Source: Eledone cirrhosa
Lineage: Eukaryota
NCBI GenBank assembly: GCA_964016885.1
Contig: OZ024742.1
Coordinates: 260,524,001 to 260,588,000, forward strand
Length of the DNA stretch: 64,000 bases
Direction of reading: 5' to 3'
In this document: positions 54,171 to 64,000 of the stretch, in pieces
How positions within the stretch are numbered: position 1 is the stretch's first letter
How the letters are laid out: each line of letters starts with the position of its first letter
Translations under genes and position numbers: made by a program
Notes under the pieces: generated by a model
What the model was told of the DNA's origin: nothing
The model's database searches: none
Seen by the model: the letters and a program-made list of their open reading frames with translations, nothing else

Positions 54171-54414
54171 AATTATCCTGTCTATAGTCTGCCTTTCATA
54201 GGTTATAGATTACATACACTGGTGGTTTTTTCCCTGTATTATTGATAACACACTATATATCTCTCTCTGGTGTGTTACCTTTTTAACATATTGTATCTCA
54301 AAGAGCTCAGGATCTCTTCTCCTTTGAGCACATTATTTACAGGGAATAGCGAGGGCCTGTGCCTCCGTTAATTTATCGTGATATTTATATATATATTTAT
54401 ATATATTTATATAT

Positions 54415-55185
54415 ATCATCATCATCATCATCAACGTTTAACGTCCGTGTTCCACGCTTGCATGGGTTTGGACGGGGGTAGTCCCACTTGAGGCAAGAGT
54501 GATTGTCTTGCTCGCATAGGACTGTCTGGCAGGTTTTCTACAGTTGGATGCCCTTCCTAACACCAACCACATTTACAGTGTGGGTCTGGGAGGTTTTTAC
54601 CGTGTTGCCTACACGGCCACATTACAGCGTGGACTGTGTGTTTTTTTGTCGTGACACCTACACGATCTCATTTGTTTCGGCCTGGATGGCGCGGCACCAA
54701 CATAACTTTACATAGAACGGGGTGGTGTGGATGGGGTGGTGGTGGTGGGACGGAGTGTATTTTGTTAGAGATGCCTACTGGCTGGAGTAGGTTTTACTAT
54801 ATATTTAGGTAAGGCGGGTCTTCTCTGTTACTGAGTACCGCCAAAGGTCTCGGTCCAGTGACATTGTCTTGGAGAGGTGTAAGTGTGTGATGTCGGAGTT
54901 TATCAGCTCGTCCCAGGTTTTTCTAGGTCTGCCTATTCTGTGACTACCGTCTATCTTTATTGCCCTGCACTTTGTTATACAGCTATCGACTTTCATGCGC
55001 ATCACGTGTCCATACCAACGTAGCCTTCTCTCGAGTAAACAACATCTGATCCCTCTTATCTCTAATTTTTTCCTTAGTTCGTTTATGCTTTGCCGTTCAC
55101 GTATATTACTGTTACACATCCAACGGAGCATGCAAGCTTCGTTCCTCTCTAGTCTGCGTATATCCTCTGCACACAATGCCCAGGT
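54415..55185 (-). mobile_element. PHD-RTE LINE, 5'-truncated young copy in (TA)n
   Basis: Near-identical to the other copies; TA tracts on both sides; (GAT)n tail. Confidence 0.93.
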
Positions 55186-55712
55186 ATATATATATATATA
55201 TATATATATATATATTTATATATATTTATATATATATATTTATATATTTATATATATATTTATATATATATATATATATATATATATATTAACCTTATTC
55301 AATATTCTCCAGTATGTAGAGAAAAATCTTGTCGTTCTATTTAGTTACGAAAAATCTTTTTTGGTAGCGATCATAGACGGCTAGTCTATGATTTCCCGCC
55401 TTCACTATACACCAACGTATTTATGGGTCACTTTCACTACCTTTCAGACCTGTATTAGTTGGAGTGAGGTTATATATTTTGTTGTTCCTGGGGTTTTAAC
55501 CCGAGGATAGGAAAATGCTTCTCTGATGATCTTCGCTTTTCCATTAATATCTACGTGATATCTAATGTTTTGCAAAGTGAAACTGTACAGTTAGGGCCAT
55601 TTGAATAGGTAAATATTTATATTATATTTTTTAATTTTGATTAATTTTAATTGTATATTAATTTTGATTTATTTTGAAAAATTGGTTGAATTTTACTTGT
55701 TCTGCTTATCTT

Positions 55713-56174
55713 GATATATATATATATATATATATATTTATATATATATATATTTATATATATATATATTTATATATATATATATATATATATATTTATA
55801 TATATATTTATATATATATATATATATATATATATATTTATATATATATATATATATATATATATATATATTTATATATATATATATATTTATATATATA
55901 TATATATATATATATATATATATATATATATATATATATATATTTATATATATATATATTTATATATATATATATTTATATATATAAATATATATTTATA
56001 TATATATATATATATTTATATATATATATATATTTATATATATATATATATATTTATATATATATATATAAATATATATTTATATATATATATATATATA
56101 TTTATATATATATATATATATATTTATATATATATATATATTTATATATATATCTATATTTATATATATATATA
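55713..56174. repeat. Interrupted (TA)n microsatellite
   Basis: ~460 bp of TA with TTTA interruptions. Confidence 0.95.
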
Positions 56175-61808: not shown

Positions 61809-63115
61809 ATATATATATATATATATTTATATATTTATATATATATATATATATATATATATATATATATATATATATATATATTTATATATATATATAT
61901 ATATATATTTATATATATATATATATATATTTATATATATATATTTATATATATATATATATATATATATATATATATTTATATATATATATATATATAT
62001 ATATATATTTATATATTTATATATATATATATATATATATATATATATATTTATATATATATATATATATATATATATTTATATATATATATATATATAT
62101 ATATATATATATATTTATATATATATATATATATATATATTTATATATATATATATATATTTATATATATATATATATATATATATATATTTATATATAT
62201 ATATTTATATATATATATATATATATATATTTATATATATTTATATATATATATTTATATATATATATAATATATATTTATATATATATATATTTATATA
62301 TATATATATATATATATATTTATATATATATATATTTATTTATATATATATATATATATATATTTATATATATTTATATATATATATATATATATATATT
62401 TATATATATTTATATTTATATATATATATATATATATATATTTATATATATTTATATATATATATATATATTTATATATATATTTATATATATATATTTA
62501 TATATATTTATATATATTTATATATATATTTATATATATTTATATATATATATTTATATATTTATATATATTTATATATATATATATATTTATATATATA
62601 TATATTTATATATATATATATATTTATATATATATATATTTATATATATATATTTATATATATATTTATATATATATATATATATATTTATATATATATA
62701 TATTTATATATATTTATATATATTTATATTTATATATATATTTATATATATATTTATATATATATATATATATATATTTATATATTTATATATATATATA
62801 TATATATTTATATATATTTATATATATATATATATATATATATATATATATATATATATATTTATATATATTTATATATATATATATATGTATATATTTA
62901 TATATATTTATATATGTATATATTTATATATTTATATATGTATATATTTATATATATATATATTTATATATGTATATATTTATATATTTATATATGTATA
63001 TATTTATATATATATATATTTATATATGTATATATTTATATATATATAAATATATATATAAATATATATATATAAATATAAATATATATAAATATATATA
63101 TATATATATATAAAT
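61809..63115. repeat. ~1.3-kb interrupted (TA)n microsatellite
   Basis: Almost purely A/T. Confidence 0.95.
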
Positions 63116-63535
63116 ATTTGGGTTTGTACCAGGGAGAGGCACCACTGATGCCCTCTTCCTTGTGAGGCAATTACAGGAAAAGTACCTAGCGTCACGCAGT
63201 AATACAGGGTACCCGACCTCCCATGGGTACATGCTGAAGCATATAAACAATATGCCCCCAATCCCCCCACCGCAAGGTGGTCGTGGAGGTGCCACGGCAA
63301 AAAAGCACCCAGCCCACACTGTAAAGTCGACGTGTAGGTGCCACGAAAAAGCACCCAGCACTCACTGTAAATGAGGTTGGTGTTAGGAAGGGCATCCAGC
63401 TGTAGAAATCAAGCCAGATCAGTTCCTGTATGAGCAAGGCATGGTCAGCCGACTAGACACTGCCCACAACAGGACAACCCGTCTAACCCATGCTAGCGTG
63501 GAAGAACGGACGTAAAACGTGATGATGATGATGAT
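63116..63535 (+). mobile_element. RTE subfamily 2 copy with large internal deletion, in (TA)n
   Basis: FGFVPGRGTTDALFLVRQLQEKYLA joined directly to the sequence matching 35829-36133. Confidence 0.85.
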
Positions 63536-64000
63536 ATATATATATTTATATATATATATATATATATATATATATATATATTTATATATATATATATATT
63601 TATTTATATATATATTTATTTAAGAGGGTGTTAAATTTTAAATATTTTTCTCCCCATAACGGCATTCCTGTCTTAACGACATCACCACTTTCTCCGCTTG
63701 GCCTGTTTTTCCCCCCTTTTGGAACTTTTCCCCCGTTGATGGGCGTGAGCCCGAAATATTGGGATTAAAATCTCTACTACGGTAACCCTTCTGCCTTTGT
63801 TTTGTTTTCATCTTTGTCTCTCTCAACTTTTACTTTCACCTGTTTTTCCTATCTATATTTCACTTCCTACCTCGAGATTTCCCTTTGCATTGTTGTGGCT
63901 TTCTTAAATACGTATTTTTATATATTTATTTATATATATATTTATATATATATTTATATATATATATACATTTATATATATATATATATATTTATATATT

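What the first reader, a model, noticed from the sequence alone, without database searches (positions are those of the whole stretch)
54380..63620. Apparent (TA)n-targeted retrotransposition: five RTE copies clustered in TA tracts
Seen: copies at 54415-55185(-), 56175-56982(+), 57035-58257(+), 59083-61808(-) and 63116-63535(+) each have TA repeats at both junctions, different 5' truncation points, both orientations and (GAT)n tails that merge into ATAT. The 5' junctions show 1-3 nt microhomology to TA (e.g. tataTATGATGCC). The copy at 1-1884 also ends in a TA/TG tract. Inference: these are independent insertions with a preference for (TA)n, which is palindromic and would allow either orientation. 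Duplication of target TA might also lengthen the tracts and feed back on insertion. Counter-example: the copy at 35425-36133 is not in a TA tract.
Basis: partly seen in the sequence, partly recalled or inferred. Interest (0 to 1): 0.7.

Follow-up and report, generated by a model that had tools for sequence, protein, structure and literature searches.

The report
TA-seeking LINEs stacked in one microsatellite
Five copies of a very common jumping gene sit inside one long TA repeat, and its relatives across this animal's genome land in TA repeats about ten times more often than chance, likely because they cut at a short TA-containing word that these repeats are full of, not because they seek out long repeats.

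Summary
Observation confirmed. Five RTE-type LINE copies (four family A, one family B) lie at the stated coordinates, each TA-flanked on both sides, and are not each other's nearest relatives. In a three-chromosome sample a TA run of 10 nt or more touches the 3' junction in 30 of 69 family A copies and the 5' junction in 33 of 54, against about 5% background and 10 of 68 / 6 of 26 for a CR1-like control. But a third of copies have no such run, long tracts are not favoured, and a short motif, (T)AT^RT, predicts the same rate (40-52%), because that share of the motif lies in TA tracts here. In an 18-bp satellite 27 of 28 insertions use that motif, on one strand. Target duplications are about 0-6 bp, shorter than usual for RTE. 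The cluster is best read as one TA array hit by five RTE and three Penelope-like pieces; all nine tracts share one strand-polar variant. A mis-join of this locus is not excluded; empty alleles were not seen. The scan noted this preference before on other DNA of the same genome.

The parts
54415..55185 (-). RTE-type LINE, family A, 5'-truncated copy with (GAT)n tail
56175..56982 (+). RTE-type LINE, family A, 5'-truncated copy (another subfamily: about 4% from the other three)
57035..58257 (+). RTE-type LINE, family A, 5'-truncated copy
59083..61808 (-). RTE-type LINE, family A, 5'-truncated copy; open 776-aa frame with reverse transcriptase (PF00078) and a PHD-type finger (PF00628) behind it
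63116..63535 (+). RTE-type LINE, family B, 5'-truncated and internally deleted copy
54381..54416 (.). TA tract (3 ATTTA variants on +)
55185..55289 (.). TA tract (5 ATTTA on +)
55714..56177 (.). TA tract, 464 bp (20 ATTTA, 2 TAAAT on +)
56981..57035 (.). TA tract between two family A copies
58256..58312 (.). TA tract
59020..59084 (.). TA tract
61808..63117 (.). TA tract, 1310 bp (71 ATTTA, 6 TAAAT on +)
63534..63619 (.). TA tract
63919..64000 (.). TA tract, runs on about 40 bp past the window end
55290..55713 (.). Piece of a dispersed young repeat with a 524-bp unit, partial tandems and inverted partial copies (Penelope-like layout, inferred); its fixed end usually abuts TA
58313..59019 (.). 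Dispersed young repeat with a 609-bp unit plus a partial repeat (Penelope-like layout, inferred); fixed end abuts TA in 12 of 12 loci; no Rfam match of note
63620..63918 (+). Terminal piece of a Penelope-like element; longer copies carry an RT plus GIY-YIG frame upstream (weak Pfam hits, just under the cut-off)

Best explanation
This is a high-copy RTE-type LINE whose copies mostly begin their 3' flank with AT^RT, likely because its endonuclease nicks at a short T-A step motif, so that TA microsatellites collect copies simply by being dense runs of that motif. Steps: (1, shown) copies end in (GAT)n and the flank continues with a purine in 92% and then T in 74% of 109 copies; (2, inferred) the APE endonuclease nicks the opposite strand at the TpA step of 5'-AYAT^A-3' and the last AU of the RNA tail pairs with the exposed AT to prime reverse transcription; (3, shown as junction geometry, inferred as chemistry) the second-strand break falls within about 0-6 bp, so duplications are tiny and invisible in TA; (4, shown) because (TA)n reads the same on both strands, copies go in either way round, while a satellite that offers the motif on one strand takes them in one phase and one orientation; (5, inferred) the window's cluster is one old TA array, marked by a strand-polar ATTTA variant, that took five RTE and three Penelope-like insertions at different times.
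For: Family size: 12,017 exact 3' ends for A, 11,959 for B. TA run of 10 nt or more: 3' 30 of 69 and 20 of 40, 5' 33 of 54 and 19 of 29 in two samples; background 4.8% and 5.7%. Motif-conditioned background gives the same 3' rate: 0.40 (bootstrap 0.30-0.48) for ATRT and 0.52 (0.43-0.58) for TATRT. No excess of long tracts: 3 of 72 copies with AT^AT have 31 nt or more of perfect TA behind them, against 11-13% of motif sites. Satellite: 27 of 28 distinct insertions at one phase, 29 of 29 A and 2 of 2 B ends in one orientation, although the other strand offers a longer match to the tail. No unit-length duplication (0 of 20), 5' junction within 0-4 bases of the site in 13 of 18; longest flank match 2-7 bp in 18 of 21 low-TA sites. 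Window copies rank 24th-71st of 89 among each other's relatives. 115 ATTTA against 8 TAAAT over nine tracts, whatever the orientation of the neighbour; 16 of 19 such arrays elsewhere are also single-polarity. All three spacers are dispersed repeats.
Against: The 5' side carries more TA than the motif model gives: 61-66% observed against 42-57% simulated, and 23 copies with TA only at the 5' end against 8 only at the 3' end (p = 0.011; simulated ratio 1.1-1.5). The cluster itself is far denser than the motif predicts: about 0.2 family A copies expected from 1,628 sites on a rough family size of 30,000 (my estimate), 4 seen; the locus was picked for that, and the satellite is also about four times the genome mean (35 hits in 2.25 Mb), so regional effects exist. 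The background is only 19 stretches of 10 kb and reflects today's tracts. The motif was partly read from the same copies it explains. The CR1-like control is also enriched about threefold (10 of 68, p = 0.0015), so part of the effect is not specific to this family. No empty allele was seen.
Confidence: 0.65

Rival explanations
1. True (TA)n targeting: the element recognises TA tracts as such (repeat length, cruciform or nucleosome-free DNA, perhaps through its PHD-type finger), like the known microsatellite-specific LINEs.
For: 9-11-fold enrichment, stronger than the CR1-like control (50 of 109 against 10 of 68 at 3', p = 2e-5; 52 of 83 against 6 of 26 at 5', p = 6e-4); excess TA upstream of the site; the window's array holds far more copies than motif density predicts.
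Against: 17 of 54 copies have no 10-nt run at either end; long tracts are not over-used; the same family inserts with base precision in a satellite whose alternating run is only 4-5 nt.
Confidence: 0.17
2. The TA tracts are made by the insertions: the (GAT)n tail, a short duplicated TATA or added bases at the 5' joint seed repeats that then grow by slippage.
For: More TA at 5' than at 3' junctions; 19 of 52 5' joints have extra bases between the TA run and the element; RTE tails are known to give rise to microsatellites (PMC2887409, search listing only).
Against: Both flanks often carry the same peculiar variant unit (L058, L065, L068, L073, L075, L076, L126, L128, L146); the window's tracts share one polarity regardless of element orientation; tract length does not rise with age (median 3' run 9, 8.5, 9 nt in three identity classes); satellite insertions have no TA tracts at their junctions.
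Confidence: 0.08
3. Passive pile-up or repair at fragile TA arrays: breaks at TA tracts, or lack of selection there, let any retroelement accumulate.
For: Three Penelope-like repeats and, more weakly, a CR1-like LINE also sit at TA; the cluster has no unique DNA.
Against: Intact tails and a fixed phase in the satellite point to an endonuclease with sequence preference; enrichment is at the junction, not the neighbourhood (7.9% at 200-560 bp from the copies).
Confidence: 0.06
4. Assembly artefact: unrelated reads joined at TA repeats.
For: 9.6 kb with no unique anchor; TA tracts of 464 and 1310 bp; no public contig or read spans the junctions; the 524-bp repeat breaks off exactly at its own internal AT run.
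Against: Raw short reads and contigs from other runs show TA or TA-rich letters at 7 of the 12 listed 5' loose ends of family copies (28 further rows were not shown); one variant polarity runs through all nine tracts; matching variant units on both flanks elsewhere. This rules it out for the family, not for every joint of this locus.
Confidence: 0.04

Closest known systems
RTE-clade LINEs and SINEs with the Tn-TA insertion signature (Bov-B, plant RTE, Sauria and Au SINEs; PMC6007223 and PMC13295347, passages seen)
   Same: Single APE-RT frame, microsatellite-like 3' tail, cut at a T-A step with A as first target base, 1-2 nt overlap of tail and target; in the satellite a TTT lies 9-11 nt upstream of the site.
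   Different: Outside the satellite no T-stretch excess was found (TTT in 9, AAA in 9 of 83 5' flanks); duplications are about 0-6 bp against the 7-15 bp quoted for RTE (that study only scored duplications of 10 bp or more); the preference extends over R-T behind the site; a PHD-type finger follows the RT.
Microsatellite-specific LINEs: Waldo (ACAY), Mino (AC), Kibi (TC), Koshi (TTC), Dong (TAA) (PMC3812793, passages seen)
   Same: LINEs that interrupt existing microsatellites through endonuclease preference.
   Different: Other repeats; those families are described as sequence-specific, whereas about a third of these copies are outside TA runs. That review lists no RTE and no LINE for (TA)n.
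Naiad and other Penelope-like elements with (TA)n insertion bias (PMC8557442, passages seen)
   Same: Retroelements for which (TA)n is a preferred target and duplications cannot be discerned; the three spacers in this cluster look Penelope-like.
   Different: GIY-YIG endonuclease and pseudo-LTRs, not an APE LINE.
RTE-2_OV of Octopus vulgaris (PMC9115989, section 6 read)
   Same: RTE clade, one frame of about 1,100 aa with endonuclease, RT and a zinc-finger domain described as rare in RTE.
   Different: Sequence not compared here; its 3' UTR is described as mostly microsatellite, this one has about 390 bp of ordinary sequence; target sites were not analysed (0 hits for 'target site').

Membership tests
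RTE-clade LINE | One long frame with APE endonuclease and reverse transcriptase | tested here: met
   Intact 1,030-1,166 aa frames in 4 of 8 long copies; PF03372/PF14529 and PF00078 in L091
RTE-clade LINE | Short tandem-repeat 3' tail, 5'-truncated dispersed copies | tested here: met
   (GAT)n tails, varied truncation points, 12,017 exact 3' ends
RTE-clade LINE | RT phylogeny inside the RTE clade | not tested
   No named reference set on hand; 120 best homologues are almost all unnamed. Clade name rests on layout and on recalled C-terminal motifs.
RTE-clade LINE | Target duplication of 7-15 bp | tested here: not met
   2-7 bp in 18 of 21 low-TA sites, the three longer ones in local tandem repeats; 0-4 bp in 13 of 18 satellite sites
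Tn-TA signature elements | Cut at a T-A step, A first | tested here: met
   GGT^ATRT in 27 of 28 satellite insertions; flank profile
Tn-TA signature elements | T-stretch about 10 nt upstream | tested here: inconclusive
   Present by construction in the satellite unit; not enriched elsewhere, 9 TTT against 9 AAA of 83; variable junction offsets blur the test
Microsatellite-specific LINE (Waldo, Mino, Kibi, Koshi, Dong type) | Nearly all copies in the target repeat | tested here: not met
   37 of 54 with a 10-nt TA run at either end; many copies in a satellite or in plain sequence
Microsatellite-specific LINE (Waldo, Mino, Kibi, Koshi, Dong type) | Endonuclease shown to cut the repeat specifically | not testable with these tools
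   Needs a cleavage assay
Penelope-like element (spacer 63620-63918) | RT with C-terminal GIY-YIG, tandem or inverted terminal repeats | tested here: inconclusive
   GIY-YIG E = 1.5e-4, 22.5 bits against a cut-off of 22.6, on a partial frame; inverted pairs 2-6 kb apart

The most novel reading that the evidence does not exclude
A PHD-finger RTE lineage has become a genuine (TA)n-homing LINE with near-blunt integration: its endonuclease reads TA upstream of the cut as well as the T^ATRT site, long TA arrays act as shared landing pads for several retroelement classes, and this steers tens of thousands of insertions away from functional DNA in a TA-rich genome.
Probability: 0.2. Interest if true: 0.6.

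Novelty: new variant of a known kind. Interest (0 to 1): 0.35.

Why it matters
It gives a measurable target rule for one of the most abundant LINE families of a 3-Gb genome and shows how a short cut motif can look like microsatellite targeting when the genome is rich in that repeat; a motif-matched background is the needed control. The very short duplications depart from the RTE norm and make second-strand cleavage testable. Practically, such TA arrays with stacked insertions are where assemblies and microsatellite markers fail.

Tried and rejected
Empty alleles and locus check: two read-laying runs skipped the repeats and spanned no junction; no verdict on this locus. Runs with small shares were not used as evidence. 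A genome-wide tail-plus-TA count (644 forward matches) only catches tails of five units or fewer and multi-counts on the reverse strand, so it was not used as a fraction. Local duplication of one copy: rejected. Unit-length duplication in the satellite: rejected. Tail microhomology alone as the cause of site choice: rejected, since the satellite's other GAT sites are unused by family A. ATTTA variants as Tn-TA targets that would orient copies: not supported, the cluster has three plus and two minus copies and flanks show no TTT excess. Hammerhead retrozyme for the 609-bp repeat: no Rfam match. Rows dropped: 1 of 70 and 30 of 70 family A copies and 2 of 70 CR1-like copies in the satellite (analysed apart); copies whose 5' end lay outside the fetched DNA or in the variable 5' UTR; CR1-like copies under 88% identity and six with a reference breakpoint for the 5' count. 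A few CR1-like tail ends were parsed imperfectly. Literature: searches found no report of a (TA)n-preferring RTE or of a PHD finger in RTE; the library lacks most subscription papers and Repbase entries, and no supplements were read, so this is no proof of novelty.

Full report
Setting. The window is G000:C3:260524001-260588000 of a 3.0-Gb animal genome. TA runs of 10 nt or more cover 4.5% of 19 arbitrarily placed 10-kb stretches. The repeat make-up resembles octopus genomes; that is my recollection and was not tested.

Observation. The five copies, their strands, tails and flanking TA tracts are as described. Four belong to a young family (A), one to a related family (B). Copy 59083-61808 keeps an open 776-aa frame with RT and a PHD-type finger; long copies elsewhere have APE, RT and PHD in one frame of about 1,080 aa, a layout shared by many of the 120 best homologues at about 50% identity. 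Exact 3'-end patterns occur 12,017 times for A and 11,959 times for B.

Independence. Over the shared 3' region the four A copies rank 24th to 71st of 89 among each other's relatives, each having closer relatives elsewhere. They are separate insertions, not local duplicates.

Enrichment. I sampled A copies without regard to their flanks: 70 of the 185 copies that carry a natural variant of the 3' end, on C1-C3, and 70 from the first 9.6 Mb of C1. Leaving aside 1 and 30 copies in a satellite, a perfect TA run of 10 nt or more touches the 3' flank in 30 of 69 and 20 of 40, and the 5' junction in 33 of 54 and 19 of 29; random positions give 4.8% and 5.7%, and positions 200-560 bp from the copies 7.9% and 17%. 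Family B gives 15 of 30 at 3'. A CR1-like LINE with an (ATT)n tail (8,256 exact ends; clade by my reading of its frame, not tested; 70 copies from the first 40 Mb of C1) gives 10 of 68 and 6 of 26: lower than A (p = 2e-5 and 6e-4) but above background (p = 0.0015).

The tracts were there first. In compound arrays both flanks often carry the same odd unit (L058, L065, L068, L073, L075, L076, L126, L128, L146). In the window all nine tracts carry the same variant on the same strand, 115 ATTTA against 8 TAAAT, next to plus and minus copies alike; 16 of 19 comparable arrays elsewhere also have one polarity, in either direction. TA length does not change with copy age. Raw reads and contigs from other runs show TA at 7 of 12 listed 5' loose ends, so such junctions are real DNA.

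Motif or tract? After the tail the flank begins with a purine in 92% and T in 74% of 109 copies, and 85% and 59% among the 39 without a TA run. In this genome 40% (bootstrap over loci 30-48%) of ATRT sites and 52% (43-58%) of TATRT sites already meet the 10-nt criterion, which brackets the observed 43% and 50%. Long tracts are not over-used: 3 of 72 against 11-13% expected. The independent test is an 18-bp satellite on C1: 27 of 28 distinct insertions join at GGT^AT|RTCAG (the 28th fits if one variant tail unit is allowed), and all 29 A and 2 B ends lie in the satellite's sense, including one in an inverted block. Sites with a better match to the tail are unused by family A, so pairing alone does not choose the site. 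I therefore infer a nick at the TpA step of 5'-AYAT^A-3' on the opposite strand, with 2 nt of tail pairing.

What the motif leaves open. TA is commoner at the 5' side than simulated (61-66% against 42-57%; 23 against 8 one-sided cases, p = 0.011), which may mean upstream recognition or added bases at the 5' joint. The cluster holds 4 A copies where about 0.2 are expected from its 1,628 sites on a rough family size; it was selected for that, and the satellite also runs about four times the mean density.

Duplications and microhomology. No unit-length duplication in the satellite (0 of 20), 5' junctions within 0-4 bases of the site in 13 of 18; at 21 low-TA sites the longest match is 2-7 bp in 18 (permuted mean 3.3) and longer only in local tandem repeats. 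The quoted RTE range is 7-15 bp (PMC6007223, passage). Lengthening of tracts by duplication is thus at most a few bases per insertion. 5' microhomology is marginal.

The cluster. The three spacers are all dispersed young repeats: a 524-bp and a 609-bp unit in partial tandems with one fixed end at TA and the end of an RT plus GIY-YIG element. (TA)n bias is described for Naiad Penelope-like elements (PMC8557442, passages). The region is best read as one TA array with eight insertions from five families. It has no unique anchor, and no read set spanned it, so a mis-join at some joint is not excluded.

Comparison. It works like the Tn-TA RTE elements (PMC6007223, PMC13295347; passages) in cutting at a T-A step with tail overlap, but the upstream T-stretch was not seen outside the satellite (9 against 9 of 83) and duplications are shorter. 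It fails the near-exclusive targeting of Waldo, Mino, Kibi, Koshi and Dong (PMC3812793, passages). My searches found no report of a (TA)n-preferring RTE, within an incomplete library. Eight earlier notes of this scan describe the same families in this genome; I had found the satellite phasing before reading them, and they are not independent support.

Verdict. Real, strong, family-wide TA association, most likely the by-product of a short target motif in a TA-rich genome. New variant of a known kind; interest 0.35.

Noticed in passing
window 60110-60260 (-), L091 residues 819-862: A complete C4HC3 PHD-type finger sits between the RT core and the C-terminal region; many homologues at about 50% identity carry it too, and I found no paper describing it in RTE elements. 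It could steer regional insertion.
   Followed up: partly
G000:C1 about 7.3-9.6 Mb (L090-L121): 18-bp satellite array with dense, phase-locked, single-orientation family A insertions, several with intact frames; two CR1-like copies also lie in it in the same sense (L215, L216).
   Followed up: yes
L091, L095, L103, L109, L116, L117, L119, 5' ends: Long family A copies have several different 5' regions, some holding their own (CT)n(AT)n run, suggesting 5' swapping or carried-along flanks.
   Followed up: no
L002:1380-1720, L177: The 5' flank holds an inverted copy of the start of the 3' flank, as in templated end-joining.
   Followed up: no
window 1550-1780; L003, L006-L009, L016, L020, L028: Tandem duplications of 112 or 140 bp inside the 3' UTR of family A, up to 12 units in L003.
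   Followed up: no
window 40662-48456: A 47-bp satellite of about 160 copies with strong C/G strand skew.
   Followed up: no
window about 7800-11150 (+): Long CR1-like LINE with a duplicated stretch in its 3' UTR; used as the control family.
   Followed up: partly
window 53820-54130 (+): Short frame with DUF7041 (PF23055), probably a gag-like LTR-element remnant (the gag reading is recalled).
   Followed up: no
window 55185-55290: The 524-bp repeat breaks off exactly at its own internal (AT)4 run, which here merges into the TA tract: truncation by annealing to TA, a deletion between TA runs, or a mis-join.
   Followed up: partly
window 2126-2863: A 740-bp self-inverted stretch with TA-rich centre, probably a MITE-like element.
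   Followed up: no
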